Positions 11,934 through 31,525 of a DNA stretch of 64,000 nucleotides are shown here, piece after piece (positions within the stretch are counted from its first letter, which is position 1; the number at the start of each line of letters is the position of its first letter). The translations under genes were made by a program, and so were the position numbers. The notes below the pieces were generated by a model. That model was not told the DNA's origin and made no database searches. It saw only the letters and a program-made list of their open reading frames with translations. Source of the stretch: Acidobacteriota bacterium (GTDB lineage: Bacteria > Acidobacteriota > Terriglobia > Terriglobales > Acidobacteriaceae); NCBI GenBank assembly GCA_021818105.1, contig JAKAFB010000001.1:65902-129901 (forward strand). The letters run 5' to 3'.

Positions 11934-12230
11934 CCGCTTTCCGGTATAAGCGGCTTCTTTCCAGAGGTTTACTTGTCGAAGTTCGCTCCTGTACACGCTG
12001 CGGCACCACACGCCACTCCGATTTCGAATGCGCTGGCGAACGTCATGCTGACCTGGACCTGCAGCAGAATGATCCCCCTTGTCCTGCGTGATTTCTCAGG
12101 CACCGCGAGAGAAAGGCAGGCTGCGCCCGGCGGCGGGAAGATTCTGCTTCGCATAGGCCAGCAGGACACAACAATTCAAGAAAGTGAGCCTGGCCATGCG
12201 CCCTGCGGATTTCGGCTCCCCCTGAAGGTC

Positions 12231-12245
12231 CCCCCGAAAAAGCAT
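12231..12245 (+). promoter_or_regulatory. ICE box partial copy 2 (upstream of the N6/N4 MTase)
   Basis: CCCCCGAAAAAGCAT, identical 15-mer to copy 1. Confidence 0.55.
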
Positions 12246-12332
12246 CTTCCCGCCTTGGGAGCAGCCATCTCTCGCGCCCTCCGGGAGTATGCCCCGAGAG
12301 ATCACTCCGGGAGCACAAAGGAGATCAGAGTC

Positions 12333-13738: not shown

Positions 13739-14062
13739 GTGTCAGAGGGCGGCTCACAACGTGGTGCACGCAGAAACAAGGTTTTCAAAGCGATGAACCG
13801 CCCGCTGACCGTTCTCGGTGCGGAGAGGCGATTGTTCTTTGTGGCGCTAATCGCGGGAGGCGCGGTCTTTTCGCTCATGCACTCGCTGGTCGGCGGCATC
13901 GTGCTGTTCATCGTGGGCGTCGCCATCGCCCGCATTGCGACGAAGCACGACGTGGAGATTCTGCGCGTGCTCTTCAACTCCGGCAAGTTCTGCCGCCGTT
14001 ATGACCCCATGAAGCCCGATGCGCTGGAGATCGCCGTCAGGAGGCGCGATGGTCAGAGTTGA
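13739..14062 (+). CDS. virB3: VirB3/TrbD family T4SS protein
   Basis: VFKAMNRPLTVLGAER, two TM helices, position between VirB2 and VirB4; AGGAGG RBS. Confidence 0.85.
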   Translation: MSEGGSQRGARRNKVFKAMNRPLTVLGAERRLFFVALIAGGAVFSLMHSLVGGIVLFIVGVAIARIATKHDVEILRVLFNSGKFCRRYDPMKPDALEIAVRRRDGQS

Positions 14063-16523
14063 TGCCATTAGAAAGGACTGGAAAGAAGCTGGCTCGTTTC
14101 CCGCACAGGTCAATCTATACGGGTTCTGGGACGAACACACTTTCCTGACCAAATCCGGCGACCTCGGCAGGGTGCTGAAGATCGGCGGCACCGACTACGA
14201 GAGCCTCGATCACGCCGGCAGGAATTATGCGGTCAAGCGCCTCGAAGCCGCCCTGCGCTCACTCGATGACAGGTGCCGCCTCTACCAAATCCTGTTCAAG
14301 CACAACCGGCCCGCAATACCCCATGCCGAGTATGACAGCCCGCTGGTCCGCGCTGCCGTGGAGCAGCGCGCGGCCTTTCTTCAGTCCAAAGCCGACCACC
14401 TATATTCCATCGAAATTGTTTGGGCAGTGATGGTCGATGGCAGCTATGCGAAGACCGGCCTGCTACACGCGCTCGGACAGTTGCCGAAACAGCCCGCCGC
14501 GTCGCTCGGCGACCTGCGCTCCCTGCTCTCCGGTAACAAGGAACGGACTCTGATCTATGAGCAGATCGAGCGCGACCGCCTGCGGTTGCAACAGAAAATC
14601 CAGAGTTTGAGTGGGCAGTTGAACGACCTGATGACGGTCGAACTGCCAGGGGCGGAAGAGACATTCCGCATACTGCGCCGTCTCGTGAACTTCCGCCCCT
14701 CGAAGATTCAGGATGCGAGGCTGTATAGCGCGCGGCGCATCGATTACCAGCTATGCGACTCGGAGCTTGAAGCGCATCGCGGCTACCTGCGCATGGACGA
14801 CGACTACCTGCGCGTGCTCACGCTGAAAGAGCTTCCGTCTGAGACGCGGCCTCTGCTGTTGCAGGGGCTGTTCGACATTCCCGCGAATTTTCACGTTGTG
14901 ACCGAGTGGCACCCGGTAGACAACGCCAGGGCGCGGAAAGAGATTGCCAGCCGTCGCCGGCATCACCACAACTCCAAGACCAGCTTTGTCTCGAACCTTC
15001 AGGACCGGCAGAATAGTGGGCCGAAAGACGAGCTGGTCGATGACTCGAAGGAGGCCGCGATCGCGGAACTGGGCGCGGCACTGACTGCGCTCGGTATGGA
15101 GAGCAAAAGCTTCGGCGAGTTCACTCTCTCGGTCGTGATCTACGACGAGGATCGCGGTAAGGTGGAACACGCCGTCGCTGAGTTCCAGAAACTGTTCACA
15201 CAGCATGACGGCTTGCTCTACGAAGAACGCTACAACCTGCTCAATGCCTTCTTTGCGACCATCCCAGGTAACCGACAGTTCAACCTGCGCAGGCAGTGGG
15301 CGCTCAATTCGAATTATGCCGACCTGTCGTTTCTCTTTACCATCGATAGCGGCAGCCAGTGGAACCCGCATCTGGAGCGGGAATACCTGCTGGCCCTCGA
15401 ATCGACGCACGGCACGCCGTATTTTTTGAACCTGCACTCCGGCGACGTGGCCCATGCGCTGCTGCTCGGCGCAACCGGGAGTGGCAAAAGCTTTTGCGTG
15501 GCCGCCACATTGCAGGCCGCGCAGAAATACGAGCCTCTGACCTTCATCTTCGATCTCGGCGGCAGCTACGAAACGCTGACACGCGTTTTTGGTGGAACCT
15601 ATCTCAACGTCGGCCTCAAAAATCCCGGCTTCACCATTAATCCGTTCTCGCTCGCAGCCACCAACGAGATCCGGAATTTTCTGTTTCTCTTCCTGCGCGT
15701 GCTGATCGAGTCCGGCGGACGCTATGAGCTGACGCCGGAAGACGAAAAGGCGCTGTTCGCCGCGATCGAGCGGGCTTACAAGCTGCCTGCAGCAATCCGG
15801 ACGCTGACCAATGTGGCGTCCATCCTCGGGCCCTTGGGGGAGCGGCTGCACCGCTGGACACAAGCGGGACAGTTCGGCCATCTCTTCGACAACGTGGAGG
15901 ACACGCTCTCATTCAGCCGGTTCCAAACCTTCAACTTCGATGGCTGGTCGGAGTACCCCGACGTGCTGGAGCCGTTGCTGTTCTATGTCCTTCAGCGCGC
16001 GTCGTCCGAGATTGAAAAACCCGCCAACACAGCCACCTTCAAGATGTTCGTGATCGACGAAGCGTGGATGTTTCTCAAGAACAAAACCATCCGCGACTGG
16101 ATTGTCCGGGCTGAGAAGACCTGGCGGAAAAAGAACGCCGCCATGATCCTGGCTACGCAGTCCGTGGTGGAACTGGCGGCCTCGGACTTGCTGCACATCG
16201 TCAACGAGTCCTGCCCGAACAAGATCTTCCTCGCCAATCCCAACATCGACCGCAGGCTGTACGCGGACATATTTCAGTTGAACGACACGCAGCTTGAGTT
16301 GCTGGAATCGCTCGTGCCCAAGCGCGAGCTGCTCGTGATCCAGCCACGCGGCACCAAGAAGCTGGTCTTGGACGTAGACGCCCTGACCTACTGGACCGCC
16401 ACCAACAACGCCCGCGACAACCTGCGCAGGCAGGACTATTTTTCTCGTTTTGGAGCAGAACAGGGGTTGCTCCAACTTGCCCACGGCTACCCCAATCCAA
16501 CCCACTCCGAGGTGATCCGATGA
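14049..16523 (+). CDS. virB4: VirB4/TrbE T4SS ATPase
   Basis: Walker A GATGSGKS, FIFDLGGSY, Walker B FVIDEAW, RKKNAAMILATQS. Confidence 0.95.
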   Translation: MVRVDAIRKDWKEAGSFPAQVNLYGFWDEHTFLTKSGDLGRVLKIGGTDYESLDHAGRNYAVKRLEAALRSLDDRCRLYQILFKHNRPAIPHAEYDSPLVRAAVEQRAAFLQSKADHLYSIEIVWAVMVDGSYAKTGLLHALGQLPKQPAASLGDLRSLLSGNKERTLIYEQIERDRLRLQQKIQSLSGQLNDLMTVELPGAEETFRILRRLVNFRPSKIQDARLYSARRIDYQLCDSELEAHRGYLRMDDDYLRVLTLKELPSETRPLLLQGLFDIPANFHVVTEWHPVDNARARKEIASRRRHHHNSKTSFVSNLQDRQNSGPKDELVDDSKEAAIAELGAALTALGMESKSFGEFTLSVVIYDEDRGKVEHAVAEFQKLFTQHDGLLYEERYNLLNAFFATIPGNRQFNLRRQWALNSNYADLSFLFTIDSGSQWNPHLEREYLLALESTHGTPYFLNLHSGDVAHALLLGATGSGKSFCVAATLQAAQKYEPLTFIFDLGGSYETLTRVFGGTYLNVGLKNPGFTINPFSLAATNEIRNFLFLFLRVLIESGGRYELTPEDEKALFAAIERAYKLPAAIRTLTNVASILGPLGERLHRWTQAGQFGHLFDNVEDTLSFSRFQTFNFDGWSEYPDVLEPLLFYVLQRASSEIEKPANTATFKMFVIDEAWMFLKNKTIRDWIVRAEKTWRKKNAAMILATQSVVELAASDLLHIVNESCPNKIFLANPNIDRRLYADIFQLNDTQLELLESLVPKRELLVIQPRGTKKLVLDVDALTYWTATNNARDNLRRQDYFSRFGAEQGLLQLAHGYPNPTHSEVIR

Positions 16524-17275
16524 ACCGCACGCCCATCTTGCCGCTCGTTCTTGGCCTGGTTGCGACCGTTGCCCACGGCCAGCAATCGGCCCGCATCGTC
16601 CATTACCACCAGAATGATATCGTGAGCATCCGCGCCCGGATGCACTACACCACGCTGATCGAATTGCCTGCGACCGAAAAGATCATGGAAGTCGCCACCG
16701 GCGATAAGGACTTCTGGATCATCGATGCGGTTGGTAATTATTGCTTTCTGCATCCCGCCCAGGCAGGCATTCACAGCGACTTGAATCTGATTACCGACAA
16801 GGGGAATGTCTATTCGTTCTTGCTGGATGACGACGAATCCGCCGAGCCAGATCTGAAGGTGGTCATCGAGCCGAGCGGCCCATCCTCTCTTGCCGCGGCC
16901 AATGGTGCGACAAAGTGGGTGCCTGCATCGGAAGTCACGTCCATTGAGGCACAGGCCAAGGCCATCGGCCAGCACGACGCCAATGCGGTCGAAACATTCC
17001 GCGCCAACTATCCGACTCAGAAATTGAAGTTCGATTACAGCTACAAGAACAAACCGCCGTTCAACGTTGCGGCCGTCTACCACGACGACAAATTCACTTA
17101 CATCAAGTCCTCCGCCTCTGAAAAGTTTGCCGTTTACGAAGTGAAAGACGGCAAACCCGACCTCATCAATTACCGGTTGCAGGACGACACCTACGTCATT
17201 CCCCAGGTGGTGGACAAAGGCTACCTCCAGATCGGCAAGCACAAGCTCACCTTCGAGCGGAAAGACGCCAGGTGA
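16520..17275 (+). CDS. virB9: VirB9/TrbG outer-membrane complex protein
   Basis: Signal peptide, YTTLIELPATEKI, NLITDKGNVYSF, VYHDDKFTYI; ATGA overlap. Confidence 0.88.
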   Translation: MNRTPILPLVLGLVATVAHGQQSARIVHYHQNDIVSIRARMHYTTLIELPATEKIMEVATGDKDFWIIDAVGNYCFLHPAQAGIHSDLNLITDKGNVYSFLLDDDESAEPDLKVVIEPSGPSSLAAANGATKWVPASEVTSIEAQAKAIGQHDANAVETFRANYPTQKLKFDYSYKNKPPFNVAAVYHDDKFTYIKSSASEKFAVYEVKDGKPDLINYRLQDDTYVIPQVVDKGYLQIGKHKLTFERKDAR

Positions 17276-18531
17276 GAACCATGCCGGAAGAGAGAACAAC
17301 TCCTGAAGTGAAAACAGAGGCGTCCTCGCCGGAGGTGCATCCGCCGAGCGCGACGCTCCGCGACAAGCGCGTGCTGCCCGAAGGCGTCGTGCCCAAACAG
17401 GCGCAGGCGTATGTGGTCGCCGGACTTGCGCTGTTGATTCTGATGGCTGTGCTGTTCTCGAAGAACCATGCGAGGACCGCGCCGAAGGAATTGGCGCCTC
17501 CTCCGGCCTCTGTGTCGAATGACATAAATCAGCAGCGGATTCACGAACTGGAGCAGGACTTGAGCGCCGACCAGCGCCAGATTCAGCAGCAGGCCCAGGC
17601 GCAGAAGTCCGGCGCGACGGCAGCGCCGGGAAGCGCAGCCTCTGCGGGTGGGACCGCTCAGACCAGCGATGTTAATCCTTCCGGACCGTCGCAGGCGCCT
17701 GCGCAGCCTCCCCGCGATCCGATTGCCGATGCGGAAAAGGCTCTGGCCTTCAAATCCCGGTTCGCTTCGAACCTCGTGAGTCCAGTTGAAGCGACACCTC
17801 CCGCCGCGACCGGCGCGAGCGCACAGCCGAATCCATCTCCCGCGAATCGCGCTCAGAGTTCACAGGGGCAGACTTCTGCTCCGCAGCCCGCCGATGCCGC
17901 CGGCAAACGCGCGCCCGAGGTCAACATCGACGCGGCACACGGCCGCCCCTATGTGATCTTCGAGGGCACGACCATCGATACTGTGCTGACCAACCGACTC
18001 GACGGCGAGTTCGCCGGGCCGGTCAAGGTGATGGTGACCAATCCCGTCTACAGCCGCGACGGCCAGCATGTGCTGATTCCAGCAGGAACCTTCCTTCTGG
18101 GCGACGTTCAGAAGATCTCGAACTTTGCTCAAAAGCGGCTGGCCGTGACCTTCCACCGCATGATCATGCCGGATGGATACTCGGTCGATCTCGACCAGTT
18201 CCACGGCCTCGACCAGATCGGCGACACCGGACTCAAAGATAAAGTCAACCACCATTATGTGCAGATTTTCGGAGCGTCGATTGCGCTGGGCGTGATCGCA
18301 GGCGCTGCCGAAGCCACCACCTACGGCAACGGTTATACCTTCAGCGGTCCCTCCATGTACGAGCAGGGAGTGGCGTCGAGCCTGTCGCAATCGAGTGCGG
18401 ACGTGCTTGACCGCTTCGTCAATATTCTGCCCACGATCACCATCCGCGAAGGCCACCGGATCAAGGTTTACATCACCCAGGACATGCTCCTGCCCGCCTA
18501 CGACGACCATGACATGCCGGGGGTGATGTGA
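17272..18531 (+). CDS. virB10: VirB10/TrbI
   Basis: N-terminal TM, Pro/Ala/Gln-rich linker, GTTIDTVLTNRLDG, RLAVTFHRMIMPDG, PTITIREG. Confidence 0.92.
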   Translation: MRTMPEERTTPEVKTEASSPEVHPPSATLRDKRVLPEGVVPKQAQAYVVAGLALLILMAVLFSKNHARTAPKELAPPPASVSNDINQQRIHELEQDLSADQRQIQQQAQAQKSGATAAPGSAASAGGTAQTSDVNPSGPSQAPAQPPRDPIADAEKALAFKSRFASNLVSPVEATPPAATGASAQPNPSPANRAQSSQGQTSAPQPADAAGKRAPEVNIDAAHGRPYVIFEGTTIDTVLTNRLDGEFAGPVKVMVTNPVYSRDGQHVLIPAGTFLLGDVQKISNFAQKRLAVTFHRMIMPDGYSVDLDQFHGLDQIGDTGLKDKVNHHYVQIFGASIALGVIAGAAEATTYGNGYTFSGPSMYEQGVASSLSQSSADVLDRFVNILPTITIREGHRIKVYITQDMLLPAYDDHDMPGVM

Positions 18532-18671
18532 TGCGCTTTGCTTTGCTCGCGCTTCTCGTGCTGGTGGCTGGCTGCGCCTCCCCAGCGCCACCGAAGAAGC
18601 CCTCACCCTATCGCTACACAACCAGCGCGCCGCTGCGTTTGCACGGCGCTCATCGAAAGGAAACCGAATGA
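18531..18671 (+). CDS. 46-aa lipoprotein (VirB7-like or entry-exclusion-like); below ORF-track cutoff
   Basis: MRFALLALLVLVAGC lipobox; TGATG overlap with virB10 and ATGA overlap with the next gene. Confidence 0.75.
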   Translation: MRFALLALLVLVAGCASPAPPKKPSPYRYTTSAPLRLHGAHRKETE

Positions 18672-19537
18672 AGCCCATGAAATTATTCGCTCCGATTTTC
18701 GCTCTCACTCTTGCGCTCGCACCTGCGGCGCACGCCCAGTTCGGCTCGGGCATCGTCTTCGACCCCACCCAGAGCGCTCACGCTATTGAACAGATCGAGC
18801 AGGGTTTTCAGCAACTCCAAACAGCGGAGCAGATCTACACCACTGCCTACCAGACGATGAATCAGGTCATCGCCGCCTACAACCTTGCTTACCAGATGTC
18901 GCGGATGCCGCAGAATCTCGCCAGCAGGTATCAGTCCGATTTTGCCATGTGGACGAATTTTTCGTCCGCCTCCGTCCCTGACACCTACGGCAACACCTCG
19001 GCGTGGCTCAACGCACTCGATCTCGGAAATTCCACGCGAGCCACGTCCGCCTATAACGCATCCGTCATTCCGCTCGAAAGTTATCCCGGCGGTGCTCTGT
19101 CGCAACAGGATGCCAACACCCAGGCGACCATCAAAAACCAATACGCCTCATCCGAACTCGGACAGGCCACGCTGACCAATTCGCTGTCGACGCTGGGAAC
19201 GATTCGTTCCGACTCCGAGACCTTTCAGCAGAAGCTCGCCAACCTCGAATCCGACACCTACTCGACCGACCCTACGCAGCAGACCTCGAACGCCCTGCTC
19301 GGCAAGATCAATTCCGCGACCATGCTTCAGATTCATTCGCAGCAGGATGCCAACCAGATCCTCGCTGCCGAGGCGGCGCAGCAGGCGCTCGATGAGAAAG
19401 ACCAACTGGACGAGCGCAATCGGCTCATCAACCAGTCGATCTACTTCCAGCAGAACTTTCCCACGCTGATCGAGAGCATGACCTCCGGCGTGAGCGATGC
19501 CATTCACTCCGTCTCCCTTTCAACGACAGGACACTGA
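18668..19537 (+). CDS. VirB5/TrbJ-like pilus-tip protein
   Basis: Signal AHAQ, GIVFDPT motif, Gln-rich helices; precedes VirB6. Confidence 0.75.
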   Translation: MKPMKLFAPIFALTLALAPAAHAQFGSGIVFDPTQSAHAIEQIEQGFQQLQTAEQIYTTAYQTMNQVIAAYNLAYQMSRMPQNLASRYQSDFAMWTNFSSASVPDTYGNTSAWLNALDLGNSTRATSAYNASVIPLESYPGGALSQQDANTQATIKNQYASSELGQATLTNSLSTLGTIRSDSETFQQKLANLESDTYSTDPTQQTSNALLGKINSATMLQIHSQQDANQILAAEAAQQALDEKDQLDERNRLINQSIYFQQNFPTLIESMTSGVSDAIHSVSLSTTGH

Positions 19538-19540
19538 ACC

Positions 19541-20365
19541 ATGCAGCCAAACCCCTTTGCCGCCTTAAACCAGGCGATCAGCCAACTGATTACCTCCAAC
19601 AGCGCCACATTGCAGGCCACGGGGCTCAACATCTTCCGTGGCCTGGCCGTGATCCTGATTACCTGGTTCGGCATCAAGTCCGCGCTCTCTGCCACGCAGG
19701 GGCACGGTGGCGGATTTCACTTCGCAAAGTTTGCCGACCTGATTCTGATGATCTCCTTTGGGTTGGGGATGCTGACGTATTACTCGTCGCCGATTCCAGG
19801 CGTGGGTTACAGCTTCTCGGACCTCGTGACGAAGGAAGCCCAGAACATCTCTAACCAGATCGAGTCCGACCAGACGCAGCAGATCGCCAACACCATCGTC
19901 AACGCGGAAGAGCAGCTCGGCGCGCCTCCAGGCAAGTACAGCATCCTCGAAGACCTGACCTACCTTCTGATCGCGGTGATTCTCGCCGCCATGGAAGCCG
20001 TGGCCTTCGCCGTCATTGCATACGGTCTGGTCGCCTCAGCGGTCTGCGTGCTGATCGGCCCGATGTTCATCCCATGGTTCATCGTGCCCAAGATGGACTG
20101 GCTCTTCTGGGGCTGGTTCAAGGCATTTATCGGCTTCAGCTTCTATCAGGTCATCGCTTCGGCCTTCATCTATGTCTTCGCCAAAGTGCTCACCGCGATG
20201 TTTCAGGTCATCGGCAAGATCAGCATCTCGAATGCGCTGACCGTCCTGCCCGTCCTCTTTATCACCCTTATGGTCTGCATCTACGGCCTGGTCAAGATAC
20301 CGGAACTGACGGGCGCGATTCTCAGTGGCCGCGCTGGAACCTGGGTCAACCCGATGGGGAGATAG
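19541..20365 (+). CDS. virB6: VirB6/TrbL inner-membrane protein
   Basis: Polytopic; IGPMFIPWFIVPKMDWLFWGW, KIPELTGAILSG. Confidence 0.88.
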   Translation: MQPNPFAALNQAISQLITSNSATLQATGLNIFRGLAVILITWFGIKSALSATQGHGGGFHFAKFADLILMISFGLGMLTYYSSPIPGVGYSFSDLVTKEAQNISNQIESDQTQQIANTIVNAEEQLGAPPGKYSILEDLTYLLIAVILAAMEAVAFAVIAYGLVASAVCVLIGPMFIPWFIVPKMDWLFWGWFKAFIGFSFYQVIASAFIYVFAKVLTAMFQVIGKISISNALTVLPVLFITLMVCIYGLVKIPELTGAILSGRAGTWVNPMGR

Positions 20366-20369
20366 CGTC

Positions 20370-21047
20370 ATGAAGAATACTTCGTTTCAAACGTCGGAAG
20401 CCGGACATAAATTCATCGAGCTATATGCGGAGCCTGTTGTCACCAATACATACCTGAAAATCGCGCTGCTGGTGCTCTCTGTCGTCGCAGTCGCCTTGTT
20501 TGCGTTCCTCTATCGAGCCGAGACCGCTGCCTCACGGCTGAAGCCGCTGGTCATCTCCATTTCGGACGTCGGGCGCGGCCAGGTGATGAACTATGACGAC
20601 TTCTCGAAGATCCCCGTAGACCGCGTGAGCAAGTATTATCTTGCCCGCTGGTGCCAGCTTTACTACGGACGCAATCACGCGACATTGCAGCGGGACTTCT
20701 CGCAGTCGCTCGATTTCTTTTCGAACCAGTTGCAGTCCGCCACTCTCCAGCGGGTGAACCAGCAGAAGACCTTGCAGACATTCCTGCTCGATCCGAGTGC
20801 GCTGGACGTGGACATCGAGATCGACGCCGTCAATCTCATCGATCTGCGCCAGCAGCCCTATAGCGCACAGATTCAGTTCGAGAAAATCTTCCGCTCGCCC
20901 GGCGACGGCCAGGAGCAGCGCCGCGAACGCTGGACCGCGAATGTTCTGTATAGCTTCCGCGATTCAGTACCGAACGCCATGCTGCTGACCAACCCGCTTG
21001 GTCTGGTCATCAGCTACGTCCACGAAGACCAGGCATTCGGGAGCTGA
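20370..21047 (+). CDS. virB8: VirB8/TrbF family protein
   Basis: Single TM followed by NTF2-like domain ending NPLGLVI. Confidence 0.88.
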   Translation: MKNTSFQTSEAGHKFIELYAEPVVTNTYLKIALLVLSVVAVALFAFLYRAETAASRLKPLVISISDVGRGQVMNYDDFSKIPVDRVSKYYLARWCQLYYGRNHATLQRDFSQSLDFFSNQLQSATLQRVNQQKTLQTFLLDPSALDVDIEIDAVNLIDLRQQPYSAQIQFEKIFRSPGDGQEQRRERWTANVLYSFRDSVPNAMLLTNPLGLVISYVHEDQAFGS

Positions 21048-21453: not shown

Positions 21454-21762
21454 TCAGGCAGCCAGTTTGAGCTTAGGCCGAAGGCCAAGCCGCGAAGCGA
21501 TGGTCAGCAGCATATCCAGGGAGAAGTCTTTCCATTCGCCGCGCTTGATCTTCGAAACGCGCGGCTGCGAGATACCAAGCTCTCTGGCGGCTACTGCCTG
21601 TGTCCAGCCTTTGGCCGCGATGCGTTTCTCGATACGGATCATTACCTCCGCGCGCATCTTGAGAATGGCCGCTTCATCTTCATCAAAGCCGAGGTCAAGA
21701 AAGATATTGCTGCTGCCTTTGGTGATTCTGTTGTCGTCCCAACGGGAATCGGTCTTCTTCAT
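21454..21762 (-). CDS. HigA-like XRE-HTH antitoxin
   Basis: SSNIFLDLGF, WTQAVAARELGISQPRVSKIKRG, FSLDML. Confidence 0.88.
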   Translation of the reverse strand: MKKTDSRWDDNRITKGSSNIFLDLGFDEDEAAILKMRAEVMIRIEKRIAAKGWTQAVAARELGISQPRVSKIKRGEWKDFSLDMLLTIASRLGLRPKLKLAA

Positions 21763-21765
21763 CTT

Positions 21766-22086
21766 TCATTCTCCAATCAGCTTGTATCGCCGTCTCGCAA
21801 GCTCAAGATCGTTCTGACTCGTCTTCCGGGTTTTCTTCTCGAAGGCGTGAAGCACATAAATAACGTTCGCAAACTTCGCAACGTAAATTACGCGCCAGGC
21901 TCCATTGAGGTGAACCCGAATCTCATAGGCGCCTTTGCCCACGTCCTTCAATGGTTTGAAGTCAACCGGCATCAGCCCGTTCTGCACCCGGAGAAGCTCA
22001 TCGCCAAGCGCCTTGCGAACCTCCGCTGGAAACTCCCGCAGATCGTCCCGGCTGCTGCCAATGAACAAAATGGGCTTCGTTTCCAT
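21766..22086 (-). CDS. RelE/HigB (Gp49-like) toxin
   Basis: FIGSSRDDLREFP, DFKPLKDVGKGAYEIRV, YVLHAFEKKTRKT. Confidence 0.9.
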   Translation of the reverse strand: METKPILFIGSSRDDLREFPAEVRKALGDELLRVQNGLMPVDFKPLKDVGKGAYEIRVHLNGAWRVIYVAKFANVIYVLHAFEKKTRKTSQNDLELARRRYKLIGE

Positions 22087-22166: not shown

Positions 22167-23771
22167 ATGAGATACCTCTCTGTATGCTCGGGCATCGAAG
22201 CCGTATCGGTAGCGTGGCAACCGCTCGGCTGGCAGGCCGCCATGTTCGCAGAGATCGACCCCTTCTGTTGTTGGCTGCTGCGCTCGCGCTATCGCGCATC
22301 GCGGCCCATCTTTATGCCGAGTCCGCATGACGCGCCTGACAGGACGGAAGCCAAGCACCGCGCGGCAGCCATTCGCAACGTTGTTGCTCTGCCTGCTGAT
22401 GGCGACGTTATCAACGCGGGCGATTTCACAAAAATAGGTAAAAAGGATGTGGGAACAATCGACCTTCTGGCCGGAGGAACACCTTGCCAGTCTTTCTCCA
22501 TTGCCGGTAAGCGAGCGGGGCTGGATGACCCGCGTGGCAACCTCACCATCGAGTTTGCTCGACTTGCTGATCGCCTCCGGCCCACTTGGCTGGTGTGGGA
22601 GAACGTCCCCGGCGTCCTGTCGATCGACGGCGGACGGACGTTTGGAGCCTTCCTCCGAATGCTGGTCGAGTGCGGGTATGGGATCGCCTACCGAGTTTTG
22701 GACGCTCAATTTGCCGGAGTACCCCAGCGCCGGCGCCGCGTCTTCGTTGTCGGACATCTTGGAGACTGGAGAGGTCCCGCAGCAGTATTTCTTGAGTTCG
22801 CGGGCCTGTCAGGGTATCCTCCGCCGCGCCGACAAGCGCGGAAAGGAACTGCCGGGGGCGTTGAAGTCGGCCCTGCTGGCGGTCGTCTCACAGATACTGC
22901 ACCCACCATCGATAGAGGGTGCAGGGATGGCCTCACCCGCAATCAATTAGGCATCGGTGTCCTTTCATCGACGGATGAGATATCCCATTGCCTGAATGCC
23001 GGTGGCATGGGCAGACAGGACTTCGAGACAGAGACGCTGATTGCGCATTCACTCTCTGCGGATGGCTTCGACACCAGGGTCCCCGCAGACAGGTCTTCGT
23101 CTGTGGGGTGGGAGGCGAGCGAAGACGGAACCGGGCGCGGCGTGCCGATGGTTCCAGTCGCCATCGGCACCGCGCATACGAAATCGAACGGCAGCGGCTT
23201 TTCGGATCACATCGCACACACTCTGGAGAGCGGCGGTGACCAGGCCGTCGCCTTCAATCTGCGCGGCAGAGAGGGCGGCGCGCTGCCAGAGTTGACTGGC
23301 GCTGTCAGCCTCCGCGCATCCACTGGAGGCAGCAGCAACAGTTACATTGCGTTTTCCGCCAAAGACTGTGGCGCCGATGCGGGTGGTATCGCTCCCACGC
23401 TGCGCGGCATGGGATACGATGGCAGCCATGCCAACGGCGGCGGACAGGTAGCCGTCGCGTGGACACAGGAACTTACCGCATCGACTGATATAGTCGGGAC
23501 TCTTCAGCGCGGCGGCAAAGGCGGACGTGCCGATGGCGGCTTGACATCGCAGATGGCCGTGCGGCGATTGACGCCACGCGAGTGCGAGCGCTTGCAGGGA
23601 TTTCCCGACGATTACACCCTAGTCGAGTATCGCGGCAGGCTTGCAGCCGACGGTCCCCGCTACAAGGCACTCGGCAACTCTATGGCTGTCCCGGTCATGC
23701 GCTGGATCGGACAACGCATCACAGCCGTCGATGCCATCCTCCGTGAGCACGGCGCGAGGAGGGAGCCATGA
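22167..23771 (+). CDS. Orphan DNA cytosine-C5 methyltransferase with an unusually long variable region
   Basis: YLSVCSGIE (I), GGTPCQSFS (IV), WENVPG (VI), PQRRRRVF (VIII), RRLTPRECERLQGFP (IX), ALGNSM (X). Confidence 0.95.
   Translation: MRYLSVCSGIEAVSVAWQPLGWQAAMFAEIDPFCCWLLRSRYRASRPIFMPSPHDAPDRTEAKHRAAAIRNVVALPADGDVINAGDFTKIGKKDVGTIDLLAGGTPCQSFSIAGKRAGLDDPRGNLTIEFARLADRLRPTWLVWENVPGVLSIDGGRTFGAFLRMLVECGYGIAYRVLDAQFAGVPQRRRRVFVVGHLGDWRGPAAVFLEFAGLSGYPPPRRQARKGTAGGVEVGPAGGRLTDTAPTIDRGCRDGLTRNQLGIGVLSSTDEISHCLNAGGMGRQDFETETLIAHSLSADGFDTRVPADRSSSVGWEASEDGTGRGVPMVPVAIGTAHTKSNGSGFSDHIAHTLESGGDQAVAFNLRGREGGALPELTGAVSLRASTGGSSNSYIAFSAKDCGADAGGIAPTLRGMGYDGSHANGGGQVAVAWTQELTASTDIVGTLQRGGKGGRADGGLTSQMAVRRLTPRECERLQGFPDDYTLVEYRGRLAADGPRYKALGNSMAVPVMRWIGQRITAVDAILREHGARREP
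22447..22950 (+). CDS. 167-aa ORF nested in the +1 frame of the C5-MTase (M.EcoHK31I beta-like arrangement)
   Basis: ATG after AGGT; C-terminal block SSLSDILETGEVPQQYFLSSRACQGILRRADKRGKELPGAL looks like real protein, of a type I recall from phage/ICE MTase loci. Confidence 0.65.
   Translation: MWEQSTFWPEEHLASLSPLPVSERGWMTRVATSPSSLLDLLIASGPLGWCGRTSPASCRSTADGRLEPSSECWSSAGMGSPTEFWTLNLPEYPSAGAASSLSDILETGEVPQQYFLSSRACQGILRRADKRGKELPGALKSALLAVVSQILHPPSIEGAGMASPAIN
23070..23117 (+). repeat. Palindromic coding-sequence insertion, copy 1 (in C5-MTase)
   Basis: GACACC-[36-bp core 23076-23111; stem CCCCGCAGAC/GTCTGTGGGG, loop AGGTCTTC]-GAGGCG. Confidence 0.85.
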
Positions 23772-24199
23772 GCCTCCGCTCCTTAACGGTGTTGGCGCTT
23801 TCCTCGCGGAAGAGAGCAGACCTCGACCTTCGCCCTGTCCTTATCCCCTCGACATCCAGATCGCGCAGCTTCGCCTTCCGCGTAGTCGCCCAGGAGCGGA
23901 CCCTCGCACAGTACCGGCAAGAAGGCAACGATGCGGAAGATTGCCGAACGTGGTTCACCCACTCACCGCTGGTCTACGCCGACCGGAAAACGCGACAGAA
24001 CGGACGACTCCGGTACGCAGCTTGCGAATCAAGCGCATCGTTGCCCAGACCCCTTCAGACGGATGTTTCCGTAGAGCGCCCTCTCTCCCGGACTTTCCCA
24101 TGTCTCACTCGGTCACTCGCTCGGTGCTTATCCCGCGCCCTGCGGCAGCTGCGCGGCTCTGCTTCGCACTACGTGCGCCCTTACGGGTTTCGGCTTTCA

Positions 24200-24249
24200 G
24201 AAAATCTTTTCGGCAAAACTCCGCAAAGAACGCGGACGAAAAGATTTTC
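24200..24249. repeat. Compound hairpin upstream of ssb
   Basis: Perfect 13-bp IR GAAAATCTTTTCG/CGAAAAGATTTTC enclosing a 5-bp IR TCCGC/GCGGA. Confidence 0.8.
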
Positions 24250-24406
24250 CGAACCTTCCGAAAATGCGCCGCTTGGCCTTGGGAGCGGGGCACATTCACC
24301 ACCCCAGCGCGCAGATTGCGCGCGCTCGGGGACCCCGGTACTCGCGTCGCTTCGCGCAGGAGTGTCCCGAGTAAGAACAGGGCAAATCCAAACAGGAGTT
24401 AAAGCA

Positions 24407-24856
24407 ATGGCACTCTATACCAACACCGTCACCGTGAAGGGTTACCTAGGCAAGGACGCTGAGACCTTCGCCACCAAGAACCAGAAGACAGCCGTCGTCC
24501 TGTCGCTCGCCACCAAGTCCGGCTATAAGGACCAGCGGACGAACGAGTGGGTGAACCGCACCGAATGGCACCGCATCGTGGCTTTCGGCAAGCCCGCCGA
24601 TTACGCGAAGGGCCTGAAGAAGGGCGACTACGTCGAAGTCGAAGGCGAACTGCGCTCGACCGAGTACGAGAAGGAAGTCGGGCGGGGCAAGAGCAAGGTC
24701 AAGGTCACCTTCCGCGACAAGGAAGTGCGCGCCAACACCGTGAAGAAGCTCGCAGGACCGGCGAAAGGGGAGAATCTCGACGCCGGGGTCCCCACGGACA
24801 GGTCTTCGTCCGTGGGGTGGGACGCCGATCCCATCACGGAGGAGGACGCCGCGTAA
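24407..24856 (+). CDS. ssb: Single-stranded DNA-binding protein
   Basis: NTVTVKGYLGKD, SLAT, TEWHRIVAFGK, KGDYVEVEGELRS; AGGAG RBS. Confidence 0.93.
   Translation: MALYTNTVTVKGYLGKDAETFATKNQKTAVVLSLATKSGYKDQRTNEWVNRTEWHRIVAFGKPADYAKGLKKGDYVEVEGELRSTEYEKEVGRGKSKVKVTFRDKEVRANTVKKLAGPAKGENLDAGVPTDRSSSVGWDADPITEEDAA
24779..24826 (+). repeat. Palindromic coding-sequence insertion, copy 2 (in SSB tail) with perfect 6-bp flanking direct repeat
   Basis: GACGCC-[36-bp core 24785-24820; perfect 10-bp stem CCCCACGGAC/GTCCGTGGGG, loop AGGTCTTC]-GACGCC. Confidence 0.88.
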
Positions 24857-28577: not shown

Positions 28578-30623
28578 GTGAGCCTTATGAATTTTCGCGC
28601 GCATCTACAACGCCTCACACATCCACTGATCGAGTATCGAATCCTGCTCTCGTTCGGACTGAGCGCGGCCTGCGGCATAATCCTGAGTAGCCTCTACCCC
28701 ATCAACATCATGAATCCGATGCTGCACCTGATCGCGTTAAAGCAGCCTCTAGTCTTTCATGCGCTGGTCTGGAGCTACGATCTGTTTCTCTACAGCACGC
28801 CGTTCCTGATTCTGTCCACGATATTCTCGCTCGCCTACATCCACATATATAGGAGAGAGTCGGACGAAGCAGCCGGATCACTCCCACCGTACCCCGATCC
28901 GCGATCGAGACAGGACCTGTCTCTGGTCGTCGGCGAGTTGCACCGGCAGCTTGTCCTCAGGCCCAGCCCGGCCCCGCAGTGGCTCACCATACCGGAATGC
29001 GGTCTCTATACCGGGACCTGCATTGTGGGCGCTACCGGATCGGGTAAGACTCTGGCCCTGGTCCTTCCGGCCATGCGCCAGTTGTTCGCCTACTGCGCCA
29101 ACGATTCCGAACGGAAGCTCTCCGGCGTCGTGCTCGAAGTCAAGGGCGATCTCTGCCGCCAGCTCCGGCGCATCCTCAAGTGGTGCGGACGGGAGCAGGA
29201 TTATGTCGAGGTCTCACTGGACGGCAACATCCGCTACAACCCGCTGAACAATTCGCTCGATCCCTACGCCCAGGCGTTCAACATCGCCTCTATCATTACC
29301 AGCATCTGGGGCAAGGGCAAGGAACCCTTCTGGCAGCAGTCCTACACCGATCTCGTCCGGTATGTGATTCTGCTCCACCGCGTCCGCGATGGATACCTGA
29401 CGCTGGTCGACCTCTTCCGCACCGTCATCAGCGCGGGGCGTCTGGAAGAGATGCTGATTGAGGTGGGATCGCGTTTCAGCCGGACGCAGTACATCGGTAT
29501 TGGCAAAAACGCCTACCAGAAATATGAATCCGCGCTGTCGCCGCTCGGATTCGAGTGGAACAAGGATGCGAAGCAGTACCTTGCCGTATGGACCGAGGAG
29601 TTGGAACGGCTGCTCGTTCATGAGACAGATGCTGAGTTCTTCATCTACACCCGGAAGCCATACATGCTGGAGCAATATGACCGCTTCGACAGTGTGCGGT
29701 ACTGGTATTGGGAGCACTGGAAGTTCTTCCGCTCCGAAGTCAAGACCTCGATCATCCAGGGCATTGTGGTCTTCCTGTCGCTATTCGAGACCGATCCTCA
29801 GGTGCGCCGCGTCTTCTGCCCGCCGAAAGAACTCTATGAAGGCAAGCCATGCGCCGGCGATCCCAAAGGCCGCGTCCTGCCGCCGTTCGAGGAACTGATT
29901 GAGATGGGTATGGTCGTCGGCCTGAACTTTCCCGTAGCCCTGAACCCGGCGCTGGCCAAAACCATCGGCACGCTGATGAAGATCGACTACCAGCGTGCGG
30001 TCCTGCTGCGCATCCTAAAGATGGACGCGGAACCGGAGAAGCACTTCCGCCCCACCGTGTTTCTCTGCGACGAATACCAGAACTTCGCCACGGTTGGGGG
30101 CGATAACCCGACTGGCGATGAGAGATTCCTGTCCATCTCACGCCAGCCTAAGTGCGTTCCCATTGTTGCCACGCAAAGCATCTCCAGCCTGAAGGACGCT
30201 CTGCCTAATGAAGGAGTGAAAACACTGCTGCAGGCATTCCGCACCAAGGTATTCCTCACGACCTCCGATCCCGAAACTGCGCGCTACGCATCGGAGCTTT
30301 GCGGCAAGGCGGACCGGACACGGATCAGTTACACCGTCTCCGAGTCCTCGACCAACGCCAACGTTGGCTGGCTTTCCGGCCGCACCGCATCGAGCAAAGG
30401 CTCCGTCTCGGCTTCCAAGCAGTACCAGAAACACAAAGAGCCGCTCTTCGAGGAAAAGGTCTTCTTCGATCTCAAAAATGCTCAGGCGGTCGTGGTTGCC
30501 TTCGATGGCGTCGCCCCGTTGCTTCCGACCTACTGCTATCTCAAGCCCTATTTCCTGCCCGTCACCATGACCTGGTTCGAGCAGGAGCGGATCGGCTTCG
30601 ATCCCCGGAGGATACCTGCGTGA
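28578..30623 (+). CDS. virD4: Type IV coupling protein (VirD4/TraD/TrwB family)
   Basis: Two N-terminal TMs, Walker A GATGSGKT, VLEVKGD, Walker B LCDEYQNF, SRQ...IVATQS. Confidence 0.9.
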   Translation: MSLMNFRAHLQRLTHPLIEYRILLSFGLSAACGIILSSLYPINIMNPMLHLIALKQPLVFHALVWSYDLFLYSTPFLILSTIFSLAYIHIYRRESDEAAGSLPPYPDPRSRQDLSLVVGELHRQLVLRPSPAPQWLTIPECGLYTGTCIVGATGSGKTLALVLPAMRQLFAYCANDSERKLSGVVLEVKGDLCRQLRRILKWCGREQDYVEVSLDGNIRYNPLNNSLDPYAQAFNIASIITSIWGKGKEPFWQQSYTDLVRYVILLHRVRDGYLTLVDLFRTVISAGRLEEMLIEVGSRFSRTQYIGIGKNAYQKYESALSPLGFEWNKDAKQYLAVWTEELERLLVHETDAEFFIYTRKPYMLEQYDRFDSVRYWYWEHWKFFRSEVKTSIIQGIVVFLSLFETDPQVRRVFCPPKELYEGKPCAGDPKGRVLPPFEELIEMGMVVGLNFPVALNPALAKTIGTLMKIDYQRAVLLRILKMDAEPEKHFRPTVFLCDEYQNFATVGGDNPTGDERFLSISRQPKCVPIVATQSISSLKDALPNEGVKTLLQAFRTKVFLTTSDPETARYASELCGKADRTRISYTVSESSTNANVGWLSGRTASSKGSVSASKQYQKHKEPLFEEKVFFDLKNAQAVVVAFDGVAPLLPTYCYLKPYFLPVTMTWFEQERIGFDPRRIPA

Positions 30624-31525
30624 GTTTTGAAATCATCATCCCGTTTCTGAAACCCATCGAGTCTTTGCTGTTGGATCAGACCATCTCCGAAATCATGGTC
30701 AATCCCGATAATTCCGTCTGGATCGAAGAGGCGGGCCGTATCAAGGCTATGCCGGATATTCGCTTCGAGGAAGACGCGCTCGCCACTGGCCTGGAAGTAA
30801 TTGCCAACAAGTTCGGCAAGAAGCTCGATGCCGATTCGCCCATTCTGAACCTGCGTCTGCCCGATGGCAGCCGCATGGCCGCGCTCATACCACCTGTCGT
30901 CAATCCCTATCCTCTGCTGACCATTCGTAAGTTCACTTCACGGAACTTCAACATCGAGGATCTGATCGAGCGTAGAACATTGACAGAATCACAGGCGGAG
31001 ACTTTAGCTGCTGCCGTGCAACGTGGCGACAACCTTTTGATCTCCGGTGCCACGAGCTCAGGCAAGACAACACTCGCGAACGTGCTGGCCGGTTGCATCC
31101 CCGACAGCGAGCGTATCCTGATTCTCGAAGATGTAGCGGAGCTCCATATCAGGAAACCACACGTCATCTCCGCCGAGGCGCAGCTCGACACTCACAAGAA
31201 CCAGATTGGATTCGCCGACCTGCTCAAGGCTGCTTTGCGCCATAGGCCTGACAGGATCATCGTGGGCGAGATTCGCGGACCGGAAGCGAGGGTCTTTCTT
31301 GACGCCCTCAATACTGGACACCGTGGTTCGTTGACGACCATCCATGCCAACAGCGCTGAGGATGCATTACGCCGCCTAGCGCAGCTTGCCATACGCGGTT
31401 CAGGCGGGGTCTCCCTGCTCGACGCTGAAGACGAATGCAGAAGATCCATCGATATGGTCGCGCACGTCACGAACCAGGATGGGTGGCGTCACATCACAGA
31501 AATCAGGATGGTAGCTATCGGGTAG
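30620..31525 (+). CDS. virB11: VirB11/TrbB/CpaF secretion ATPase
   Basis: EIMVNPD, GATSSGKTT, LEDVAEL, LRHRPDRIIVGEIRG, GHRGSLTTIHA; GTGA overlap. Confidence 0.92.
   Translation: MSFEIIIPFLKPIESLLLDQTISEIMVNPDNSVWIEEAGRIKAMPDIRFEEDALATGLEVIANKFGKKLDADSPILNLRLPDGSRMAALIPPVVNPYPLLTIRKFTSRNFNIEDLIERRTLTESQAETLAAAVQRGDNLLISGATSSGKTTLANVLAGCIPDSERILILEDVAELHIRKPHVISAEAQLDTHKNQIGFADLLKAALRHRPDRIIVGEIRGPEARVFLDALNTGHRGSLTTIHANSAEDALRRLAQLAIRGSGGVSLLDAEDECRRSIDMVAHVTNQDGWRHITEIRMVAIG

What the first reader, a model, noticed from the sequence alone, without database searches (positions are those of the whole stretch)
22447..22950. Gene within a gene: 167-aa ORF in the +1 frame of the C5-methyltransferase
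Seen: an ATG with an AGGT SD-like sequence opens 167 codons wholly inside the MTase, overlapping motifs IV-VIII. Its C-terminal block (SSLSDILETGEVPQQYFLSSRACQGILRRADKRGKELP) looks like folded protein, not shadow sequence. Known: M.EcoHK31I needs a beta polypeptide encoded in an alternative frame inside its alpha gene. Inference: this is a two-polypeptide MTase. Here the main ORF already has motifs IX and X, so the nested product may have a different role (specificity, regulation or assembly).
Basis: partly seen in the sequence, partly recalled or inferred. Interest (0 to 1): 0.75.

Follow-up and report, generated by a model that had tools for sequence, protein, structure and literature searches.

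The report
Hidden second gene inside methyltransferase gene
A DNA cytosine-methyltransferase gene on a conjugative element also encodes, one base out of step, a second small protein that selection has kept intact in thousands of related phage, plasmid and conjugative-element genes; it carries a standard piece of such enzymes that the main protein lacks, so these enzymes may work as two chains.

Summary
A 167-codon ORF (22447-22950) lies in the +1 frame of the C5-methyltransferase gene (22167-23771), across motifs IV-VIII.

It is a real, selected gene, not shadow sequence:
- In 82 of 84 loci (the window and relatives), 80 of them fetched by frame-0 similarity alone, the +1 frame is open for at least 151 codons, even at 39-44% GC.
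- Synonymous shuffles predict 1.6-9 stops there.
- Among 37 Acidobacteriaceae relatives, frame-0 third-position diversity falls from 0.40-0.53 to 0.13 inside the overlap.
- After motif VIII the codon periodicity switches to the +1 frame.
- The ATG and its Shine-Dalgarno are held by synonymous codon choice.

The family has 5,928 cluster representatives and includes P1-like dmt.

Function is inferred, not shown. The conserved C-terminal helices (LSDILE..YFLS..GILRRA) match an in-frame segment that directly follows motif VIII in canonical C5 methyltransferases (hhalign E 4e-5). That segment maps to the start of the M.HhaI small domain, and the main chain lacks it. I therefore favour a detached enzyme piece acting in trans (about 0.6).

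It resembles M.EcoHK31I in layout only, because the main chain keeps motif IX.

This scan has noted the same hidden gene on other DNA at least 12 times. I found no paper describing it. A few phage records annotate it.

The parts
22167..23771 (+). Main gene: orphan phage/MGE-type C5 cytosine DNA methyltransferase, 534 aa, reading frame 0
   Evidence: PF00145 1.3e-52 and phrog_116 3.6e-82. In the AF2 model residues 1-212 and 466-529 are confident, and the 250-aa variable region 213-465 has pLDDT below 50.
22436..22449 (+). Translation start of the nested gene: AGGT (22436-22439), a 7-nt spacer, then ATG (22447-22449)
   Evidence: The ATG is made of frame-0 GAT-G. In about 44 Acidobacteriaceae-type relatives the Asp codon is GAT in all but two odd rows, so the ATG is kept. 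Most carry GGAG 8-9 nt upstream, and the window has the weaker AGGT variant. In the viral set 74 of 79 loci have a start codon at -41 to -23 from the PCQ codon. At the Shine-Dalgarno place 27 of 30 Lys-Glu codon pairs are AAG GAG, including 14 of 14 in low-GC loci.
22447..22950 (+). Nested gene, +1 frame, 167 aa
   Evidence: It matches phrog_16143 at 2.2e-7. A profile of the family finds 5,928 cluster representatives.
22447..22731 (+). Nested N-terminal part (aa 1-95), overprinted on MTase motifs IV-VIII. It is acidic and rich in Ser, Pro and Thr, and its AF2 confidence is low.
   Evidence: Frame-0 third-position diversity is 0.13 here, against 0.40-0.53 outside the overlap. Synonymous codons are fixed, for example GGG, TAT, GCT, GGA and GTT in 68-74 of about 75 sequences, which keeps nested W73, G77, M78, L87 and E91. 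Median pI is 4.6. pLDDT is 40-67.
22732..22896 (+). Nested C-terminal domain (aa 96-150): SLSDILE..P..YFLS..AC.GILRRA.KRGK.LP..L..AL. It is basic and forms three helices.
   Evidence: Conservation is 0.9-1.0 in the +1 frame and 0.2-0.6 in frame 0. The codon periodicity switches: frame-0 position 1, which is +1 position 3, is the most variable. pLDDT is 82-98. It is homologous to the in-frame post-motif-VIII segment of canonical MTases.
22897..22950 (+). Variable tail of the nested protein and its stop codon
   Evidence: Neither frame is conserved here.
22482..22739 (+). MTase motifs IV (PCQ), VI (ENV) and VIII (QRRRR) in frame 0, all read a second time in the +1 frame

Best explanation
SHOWN: the 167-codon +1 ORF is a genuine protein-coding gene nested in an orphan C5 DNA methyltransferase gene of a conjugative element. 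It starts at its own conserved Shine-Dalgarno and ATG and is under purifying selection. It belongs to a very large family of nested genes found only inside one clade of phage, plasmid and ICE C5 methyltransferase genes. INFERRED: its product is a detached piece of the enzyme. The conserved C-terminal helices correspond to the segment that, in canonical single-chain C5 methyltransferases, follows motif VIII in frame and opens the small, DNA-recognition domain (about M.HhaI 190-218). In this clade that DNA sits at the same place but is read only in the +1 frame, and the main chain reads it as a poorly conserved, low-confidence linker. The small protein would be made from the same mRNA and so co-expressed with the main chain. 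It would dock on the main chain and complete or scaffold the small domain. Its acidic N-terminal part, which AF2 does not fold but which has highly conserved positions, would serve as an interaction arm. The enzyme would then be a two-chain methyltransferase that protects the incoming element from host restriction.
For: A. The gene is real.
- Among the window and relatives, 80 of them fetched by frame-0 similarity only, the +1 frame is open for at least 151 codons in 82 of 84 loci, at GC 0.39-0.68. The +2 frame is typically 14-80 codons.
- Synonymous shuffles expect 1.6-9 stops. None of 2000 shuffles was stop-free for most low-GC loci.
- 26 other C5 MTase genes of the same phylum have +1 ORFs of 6-78 codons in 24 cases, and none hits the nested profile.
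- In conserved frame-0 columns, synonymous-codon pair identity is 0.36 outside the overlap, 0.54 in its first part and 0.75 in its last part (Mann-Whitney p = 8.5e-7).
- Among 37 close relatives, d3 drops from 0.40-0.53 to 0.13. After motif VIII, d1 (0.29) exceeds d3 (0.17).
- The start codon and Shine-Dalgarno are conserved through synonymous choice.

B. The product is an enzyme piece.
- hhalign of the nested alignment against a canonical compact MTase gives probability 70% and E 4.1e-5. Nested 96-130 aligns with residues 187-220, right after motif VIII.
- Against an alignment of that enzyme's 320-360 aa relatives, probability is 55% and E 1.2e-4.
- BLASTP gives E 1e-7. PADLOC MTase profiles hit nested proteins at 3e-4 to 5e-5.
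- The same position is the top hit, though not significant, for Dcm-like and SPbeta-type MTases.
- The canonical segment aligns to M.HhaI at about residues 190-218.
- The motif is never in frame 0 of nested-bearing genes (0 of 82 and 0 of 74). It is in the +1 frame in 53 of 82 and 70 of 74. Canonical genes with the motif in frame 0 have no long +1 ORF.
- Natural proteins exist in which the nested part is fused in frame to the TRD and motifs IX-X. One exact sequence is seen on 33 contigs and another on 19.
- C5 MTases tolerate splitting in the proximal variable region, and natural two-chain enzymes exist (PMC3404938; PMC2836561).
Against: - There is no evidence of translation, of binding to the main chain or of a need for activity.
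- The homology rests on about 35 residues. It is significant for one canonical family only, and the tblastn hit that led to that family had a database-level E of 0.08.
- Foldseek found no PDB match for the nested model, and a profile search of PDB sequences found none.
- Most canonical C5 MTases of the phylum lack this segment altogether, so it is not a universal requirement of the fold.
- The strict linkage of the two genes follows from the overlap itself and does not prove a shared function.
- The DNA of the fused variants could not be inspected. Some fusions in genomes are clearly decayed copies.
Confidence: 0.6

Rival explanations
1. The nested gene is real, but its product works independently of the methyltransferase. 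It could be a small DNA-binding regulator, an anti-restriction factor or another early-entry factor. It would be housed in the MTase gene only for compactness and co-expression.
For: - The protein has a basic three-helix C-terminal domain (pI 10.7) and an acidic, disordered N-terminus (pI 4.6), a composition seen in DNA binders and DNA mimics.
- The C-terminal domain stays nearly constant while the TRDs of the host genes vary greatly in length (main ORFs of 322-717 aa). It is therefore not a specificity determinant.
- No structural or profile match ties the whole protein to a known MTase fold.
- The gene sits among early or leading-region-type genes: SSB, a second MTase and T4SS genes.
Against: - In 160 or more loci it was never seen outside a C5 MTase gene.
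- Its conserved core matches an in-frame MTase segment at the equivalent position.
- In-frame fusions to the TRD and motifs IX-X recur in nature.
Confidence: 0.27
2. The +1 frame is used by programmed ribosomal frameshifting from frame 0 just after motif VIII. This would give a truncated isoform, motifs I-VIII plus the canonical segment, rather than a separately initiated protein.
For: - The canonical segment lies immediately 3' of motif VIII in the +1 frame.
- A 239-aa protein of exactly this make-up is annotated in Bacteroides phage BK687P3.
- Chimeric frame-0/+1 proteins occur in databases.
Against: - The +1 frame is kept open for about 95 codons upstream of motif VIII even at 39-44% GC.
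- Residues there are held by fixed synonymous codons.
- A start codon with a Shine-Dalgarno is conserved.
- The database chimeras join at different, destructive points and look like indel products.
- I did not look for a slippery site.
Confidence: 0.05
3. The ORF is a non-functional by-product. It would be an open shadow frame in GC-rich DNA whose apparent conservation only mirrors frame-0 conservation.
For: - The window is 58-61% GC, where long alternative ORFs are common.
- Two high-GC control MTases have +1 ORFs of 152 and 353 codons.
- A naive resampling test also raised identity in the +2 control frame.
Against: - The frame is open in low-GC relatives, where 6-9 stops are expected.
- After motif VIII the +1 frame is far better conserved than frame 0.
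- The codon-position periodicity switches to the +1 frame.
- Synonymous sites are constrained only inside the overlap.
- The start signals are conserved.
Confidence: 0.02

Closest known systems
M.EcoHK31I (alpha + beta C5 methyltransferase of E. coli HK31; Lee, Kam and Shaw 1995, as described in PMC2836561 and PMC3404938)
   Same: A second polypeptide is encoded entirely inside the methyltransferase gene in another reading frame on the same strand. In that enzyme both chains are needed for activity. Internal start codons are used.
   Different: There, the large chain lacks motif IX and beta supplies it. Here, the main chain has motifs IX and X, and the nested protein carries a different piece, the segment after motif VIII. 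It overlaps motifs IV-VIII. The family is very large and MGE-borne rather than a single R-M system. A requirement for activity is untested. Homology to beta was not tested.
M.AquI and artificially split C5 methyltransferases (M.HhaI, M.BspRI, M.BsuRI, M.SssI fragment complementation; PMC3404938)
   Same: C5 MTases can function as two chains separated in the variable region between motifs VIII and IX. Splits in the proximal variable region complement best. That is where the nested protein's conserved segment maps.
   Different: In those cases the two chains together make up one collinear enzyme. Here the main chain is full length (I-VIII, TRD, IX-X), and the small chain would add only a segment of about 50 aa plus a new N-terminal arm. 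Rare natural variants in which the nested part is fused to the TRD and IX-X (P0198, P0179) look more like M.AquI.
Classical overprinted phage genes (for example phiX174 E within D; reviewed in PMC8227390)
   Same: It is a same-strand, out-of-frame gene embedded in an older gene. The part laid over the conserved host motifs is compositionally biased and predicted to be disordered.
   Different: The conserved C-terminal domain is not de novo. It is homologous to sequence that canonical relatives read in frame, which implies a frame switch of pre-existing coding sequence. The gene spans many bacterial phyla, and one archaeal MAG contig also carries it.
dcm-vsr of E. coli
   Same: A small gene functionally tied to a C5 methyltransferase overlaps it in another frame.
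   Different: vsr overlaps only the 3' end of dcm by a few codons (1900-1919 in L084) and encodes a repair nuclease. E. coli dcm has no long +1 ORF. The nested protein gave no Pfam family hit at all.

Membership tests
C5 cytosine DNA methyltransferase (PF00145), main ORF | Conserved motifs I, IV (PCQ), VI (ENV), VIII (QxRxR), IX and X (GNS) in one chain | tested here: met
   PF00145 1.3e-52 in two stretches and TIGR00675 2.8e-50. The motifs can be read. The AF2 catalytic core is confident.
Conserved +1 nested gene family of phage/MGE C5 methyltransferase genes (captured in part by phrog_16143) | An ORF of about 150-170 codons in the +1 frame, running from just upstream of motif IV to about 70 codons past motif VIII | tested here: met
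   Window 22447-22950. The same layout is found in 82 of 84 loci (the window and relatives) and in Caulobacter, Mycobacterium, Lactococcus, Burkholderia, Sinorhizobium, P1-like and S. thermophilus phage records.
Conserved +1 nested gene family of phage/MGE C5 methyltransferase genes (captured in part by phrog_16143) | Sequence match to the family profile, including the C-terminal motif LSDILE..YFLS..GILRRA | tested here: met
   phrog_16143 at 2.2e-7. 874 relatives were found by word search. The family profile scores the window at 1.4e-68. The motif is visible.
Conserved +1 nested gene family of phage/MGE C5 methyltransferase genes (captured in part by phrog_16143) | Own start codon with a Shine-Dalgarno about 32-35 nt upstream of the PCQ codon | tested here: met
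   The ATG is at -35, with AGGT 7 nt upstream, weaker than the GGAG of most relatives.
M.EcoHK31I-type two-polypeptide methyltransferase | The second chain is encoded wholly within the first gene in another frame | tested here: met
   The definition is taken from PMC2836561.
M.EcoHK31I-type two-polypeptide methyltransferase | The large chain lacks motif IX and the small chain carries it | tested here: not met
   The main chain has RRLTPRECERLQGF (motif IX) and GNSMAVPV (motif X). The nested protein has neither.
M.EcoHK31I-type two-polypeptide methyltransferase | Both chains are required for methylation | not testable with these tools
   This needs genetics or biochemistry.
M.EcoHK31I-type two-polypeptide methyltransferase | Sequence homology of the small chain to M.EcoHK31I beta | not tested
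M.AquI-type split methyltransferase | Alpha carries motifs I-VIII and beta carries the distal variable region plus motifs IX-X, on separate chains | tested here: not met
   The window's main chain carries all motifs. Only rare relatives have the nested part fused to the TRD and IX-X.
De novo overprinted gene | No homologue read in frame anywhere, that is, origin from previously non-coding frame information | tested here: not met
   The C-terminal domain matches an in-frame segment of canonical MTases (E 4.1e-5, 1.2e-4 and 1e-7). For the N-terminal 95 aa no in-frame homologue was found, so that part remains inconclusive.

The most novel reading that the evidence does not exclude
A whole, very large clade of phage, plasmid and conjugative-element C5 methyltransferases, including P1 Dmt, would be obligate two-chain enzymes. 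An ancestral in-frame segment that opens the DNA-recognition domain was moved into the +1 frame by compensating frameshifts. It is now delivered in trans by a nested gene whose N-terminal half was newly written over catalytic motifs IV-VIII. This would be a natural protein split by frameshift that annotation has missed almost everywhere.
Probability: 0.45. Interest if true: 0.88.

Novelty: new variant of a known kind. Interest (0 to 1): 0.8.

Why it matters
Long same-strand overlapping genes in bacterial and phage DNA are usually dismissed by annotation, and few are backed by strong evolutionary evidence. This one is ancient and spans many bacterial phyla (one archaeal MAG contig also carries it). 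It is present in thousands of orphan methyltransferase genes that help mobile elements escape restriction, including the laboratory phage P1. If the small protein is part of the enzyme, several things follow. Published and future work that expresses or annotates these methyltransferases as single chains is incomplete. Predictions of specificity and activity need revisiting. The locus would also show how a protein can be split by a change of reading frame instead of by gene fission. If the protein has an independent function, it is an unrecognised, very widespread early-entry factor of mobile DNA.

Tried and rejected
- Pfam, NCBIfam and a PDB sequence profile gave nothing for the nested protein. 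Foldseek against PDB gave no match better than E 5.7.
- hhalign against E. coli Dcm alone gave probability 0.3%. Against a Dcm-like alignment and the SPbeta-type MTase it gave E 0.11. The top hit fell at the expected place each time but was not significant. A plain HMM search of canonical frame-0 proteins gave at most 8 bits.
- My first conservation test, which resampled synonymous codons, also raised the +2 control frame. I discarded it as confounded by shared ancestry and replaced it with region-by-region comparisons.
- I considered that the MTase is a frameshifted pseudogene. I rejected this because frame 0 downstream (TRD and motifs IX-X) shows normal coding periodicity.
- I examined database chimeras (P0073, P0111, P0068, L164, L165, L182/183) as possible frameshift products. 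Their junctions differ and destroy core motifs, so they look like indel derivatives or decayed copies.
- I tried to fetch the DNA of the recurrent fused form P0198. It was not found in viral contigs, and only a 49% identical, ordinary-layout locus turned up in metagenome contigs.
- The match of 8 of 80 nested proteins to positions 293-387 of the PADLOC profile PDLC03324 remains unexplained.
- A proteomics paper that mentions phage P0091 gave no peptide usable as evidence.
- Four literature searches found no description of this nested gene. The held library is incomplete.
Full report
THE OBSERVATION

The window holds a 534-aa ORF at 22167-23771 (+). It is a C5 cytosine DNA methyltransferase (PF00145 1.3e-52; phrog_116 3.6e-82). 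Inside it, one base out of step, lies an ATG-initiated ORF of 167 codons at 22447-22950. AGGT sits 7 nt upstream of that ATG. The nested ORF covers motifs IV (PCQ), VI (ENV) and VIII (QRRRR) of the enzyme and runs about 70 codons further.

With the MTase protein and its codon usage held fixed, synonymous shuffles give a mean of 4.35 stops in the +1 span, and 0.45% of shuffles are stop-free. Between about 22707 and 22890 the GC3 signal belongs to the +1 frame (0.76-0.84 against 0.40-0.52).

IS IT A GENE? TESTS ON RELATIVES CHOSEN WITHOUT REGARD TO THE +1 FRAME

I fetched 80 viral loci with an alignment of the frame-0 protein only.
- Across these, three annotated phage loci and the window (84 loci), the +1 frame is open for at least 151 codons across motif VI in 82. 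The loci range from 39% to 68% GC. The +2 frame is usually 14-80 codons.
- Synonymous shuffles predict 1.6-9 stops. For most low-GC loci none of 2000 shuffles was stop-free.
- As a control I took 26 other C5 MTase genes from 121 genomes of the same phylum. Their +1 ORFs are 6-78 codons in 24 cases. The two long ones are at 66-68% GC. None matches the nested profile.
- E. coli dcm has none either.

SELECTION

Column by column, nested residues 101-147 are 90-100% conserved in the +1 frame. The conserved residues include L101, L105, E106, L116, S117, A120, C121, G123, I124, L125, R127, A128, R131, L135 and P136. Frame 0 there is only 20-60% conserved.

In frame-0 columns where the amino acid is conserved, identity of the codon used is 0.36 upstream and 0.36 downstream of the overlap. 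It is 0.54 in the first part of the overlap and 0.75 in the last part (Mann-Whitney p = 8.5e-7). Single codons are fixed in 65-74 of about 75 sequences.

Among 37 Acidobacteriaceae-type relatives of the window gene (71-86% nested identity), nucleotide diversity at frame-0 third positions behaves as follows:
- It is 0.40, 0.53 and 0.40 in the three non-overlapped regions.
- It is 0.13 in the overlap with motifs IV-VIII.
- After motif VIII the order inverts. Frame-0 position 1, which is +1 position 3, is the most variable (0.29 against 0.17).

A first test based on resampling synonymous codons also raised the +2 control frame, so I discarded it.

START SIGNALS

In the close relatives the nested ATG is made by an Asp codon that is GAT in all but two odd rows, followed by G. 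Most have GGAG 8-9 nt upstream through a fixed GGA glycine codon. The window carries the weaker AGGT variant.

In the viral set 74 of 79 loci have a start codon at -41 to -23 from the PCQ codon. The frame-0 Lys-Glu pair that forms the Shine-Dalgarno is AAG GAG in 27 of 30 cases, and in 14 of 14 low-GC cases. This favours separate initiation over ribosomal frameshifting.

DISTRIBUTION

- A profile of 77 nested proteins finds 5,928 cluster representatives (50% identity clusters) at E <= 1e-3, and 838 at E <= 1e-30.
- tblastn finds the protein under annotated MTase genes in 147 phage records and 527 plasmids. Most of the plasmids are E. coli P1-like IncY elements, where the host gene is dmt.
- In every record I opened, the match is in the +1 frame of the annotated gene. 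These were Caulobacter phage DMCA, Mycobacterium phage Dove, Lactococcus phage CHPC1175, Burkholderia phage Bcep22, Sinorhizobium phage NV1.1.1, an Acutalibacteraceae phage and a P1-like plasmid.
- In cellular genomes it occurs in Acidobacteriaceae (closest: Acidobacterium sp. S8, 85%), Proteobacteria, Mycobacterium, Dehalococcoidia, Verrucomicrobia, Planctomycetes, Nitrospirota and Saccharibacteria, and in a Haloarculaceae MAG. All but two (L182/183, decayed copies) of the 80 genomic loci lie in a frame with PCQ and ENV motifs one base upstream.
- Within the window's phylum it was found in 2 of 121 genomes searched.
- Streptococcus phage P0091 annotates both ORFs as 'DNA methyltransferase'. 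The ORF is therefore annotated in a few records, and this is what phrog_16143 collects.
- Four literature searches found no description of it.
- The scan's own notes list the same hidden gene on other DNA at least 12 times. I treated those as leads and re-tested them.

CONTEXT

The gene is not in a prophage. It sits in a conjugative element:
- VirB4, VirB9/CagX, VirB10/TrbI, VirB6/TrbL and VirB8 genes lie at 14019-21047.
- A coupling protein and a VirB11-like ATPase lie at 28578-31525.
- An SSB gene lies at 24443-24856.
- A second (N6/N4) MTase lies at 11973-13067.

The own genome has only this one C5 MTase. An orphan MTase next to ssb fits protection of incoming DNA from restriction. That reading is an inference.

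WHAT THE PROTEIN IS

AF2 with 77 sequences gives three confident helices at 101-107, 118-131 and 137-151 (pLDDT 82-98). Residues 1-100 have low confidence, including the strongly conserved stretch 66-100. The N-terminal part is acidic (median pI 4.6) and the C-terminal domain is basic (pI 10.7). No PDB fold or sequence match was found for the whole protein.

The key result is that the C-terminal segment is homologous to a segment that canonical C5 MTases read in frame directly after motif VIII.
- hhalign of the nested alignment against the MTase of Bacteroides phage BK687P3 gives probability 70% and E 4.1e-5. Nested 96-130 aligns with residues 187-220.
- Against 18 of that enzyme's 286-397 aa relatives plus the SPbeta-type enzyme, probability is 55% and E 1.2e-4.
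- BLASTP of the Lactococcus nested protein against the BK687P3 enzyme gives E 1e-7.
- PADLOC type II and orphan MTase profiles hit nested proteins at 3e-4, 1e-3 and 4.7e-5.
- For Dcm-like enzymes and the SPbeta-type multispecific enzyme, the single top hit falls at the same place but is not significant (E 0.11).
- The canonical alignment maps onto M.HhaI 13-256. The segment corresponds to about residues 190-218 (FVKDLL..EHLVIDRKDL). From established knowledge of the M.HhaI structure, that is the beginning of the small, DNA-recognition domain.

The motif is mutually exclusive between frames. It is never in frame 0 of nested-bearing genes (0 of 82 and 0 of 74). It is in the +1 frame in 53 of 82 and 70 of 74. 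The four canonical genes that have it in frame 0 (E. coli dcm, a Dcm-like gene, SPbeta MTase, BK687P3) have no long +1 ORF.

In the main chain, the DNA that encodes the nested helices 118-151 is read as part of a stretch with pLDDT below 50 (residues 213-465).

HOW IT MOST LIKELY WORKS

It is shown that two proteins are encoded and that both are under selection.

It is inferred that the small protein is a detached piece of the enzyme. It would be made from the same mRNA, bind the main chain and complete or scaffold the small domain. Support comes from four points:
- the homology and positional equivalence described above;
- the absence of the segment from the main chain;
- the existence of natural proteins in which the nested part is fused in frame to the TRD and motifs IX-X, with exact sequences seen on 33 and 19 contigs;
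- the known tolerance of C5 MTases to splitting in the proximal variable region, together with the natural two-chain enzymes M.AquI and M.EcoHK31I (PMC3404938; PMC2836561).

Four points weigh against it:
- there are no data on expression, binding or activity;
- the homology covers only about 35 residues;
- most canonical MTases lack this segment;
- linkage is forced by the overlap itself.

I put this reading at about 0.6, an independent function at about 0.27, a frameshift isoform at 0.05 and a non-functional ORF at 0.02.

COMPARISON WITH WHAT IS KNOWN

The layout is that of M.EcoHK31I: a second chain nested in another frame. The defining content is not, because here the main chain keeps motif IX. 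I therefore do not file this under that type.

It differs from classical overprinted genes because the conserved domain is recycled coding sequence read in a new frame, not new sequence.

I class it as a new variant of a known kind. It is of high interest because of its age, its breadth and its presence in P1 dmt, which makes it directly testable.

LIMITS

- No multimer prediction was possible.
- The loci of the fused forms could not be fetched.
- The match of 8 nested proteins to the C-terminal part of PADLOC profile PDLC03324 is unexplained.

Noticed in passing
window 23772-24442: A 671-nt stretch without convincing coding sequence lies between the MTase stop and the SSB gene. It folds as single-stranded DNA far better than shuffles (-139.6 kcal/mol, z = -5.8, 0 of 20 shuffles as good). 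There is no Rfam match. It could be a single-strand initiation or promoter element of a conjugative leading region.
   Followed up: partly
window 14019-21047 and 28578-31525: Type IV secretion and conjugation genes are present: VirB4-like, CagX/VirB9, TrbI/VirB10, TrbL/VirB6, VirB8, a coupling protein and a VirB11-like ATPase. The MTase therefore sits in a conjugative element, not a prophage.
   Followed up: partly
window 21454-22086 (- strand): A Gp49/HigB-like toxin (PF05973, 9e-25) and an HTH_37 antitoxin-like gene (3e-17) form a divergent pair immediately upstream of the MTase.
   Followed up: no
window 11973-13067: A second DNA methyltransferase of the N6/N4 type (PF01555, 3e-32) lies on the same element.
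   Followed up: no
window 22803-23561 (main-chain residues 213-465): The whole 250-aa variable region of the MTase is Gly-rich with repeated (A/S)PTL-type units. AF2 gives it pLDDT below 50. Another first-stage note on this window (e1-5277656) reads it as tandem TRD modules.
   Followed up: no
L204 (Bacteroides phage BK687P3) 1428-2400: The annotated 239-aa 'dmt' stops early, and motifs IX-X continue in the +1 frame (ORF 2041-2400). Relatives 87-96% identical are single chains of 320-360 aa. This record therefore has a frameshift, or a natural split, just after the KKGFGG segment.
   Followed up: partly
L002 (Mycobacterium phage Dove) 1302-2420: The MTase is annotated as two genes in the same frame, separated by a stop and 21 nt: gp107 carries motifs I-VIII and gp108 carries motifs IX-X. 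The nested +1 ORF (1474-1953) is intact. Several cluster relatives gave the same nested-frame match.
   Followed up: no
L164 (Edaphobacter aggregans DSM 19364), L165, L182/L183 (Granulicella MAG, two copies): These are decayed copies of the same MTase and nested gene pair. Deletions fuse the two frames or truncate both. In L182/183 the same fusion allele is present twice in one genome.
   Followed up: partly
L117 (genome G070, same phylum) 1323-2291: A compact 322-aa MTase carries a 207-codon +1 ORF with the motif CSLSDIVEE..KYFLSP but without the GILRRA helix, as in the Lactococcus phage version. It may represent a shorter form of the nested gene.
   Followed up: no
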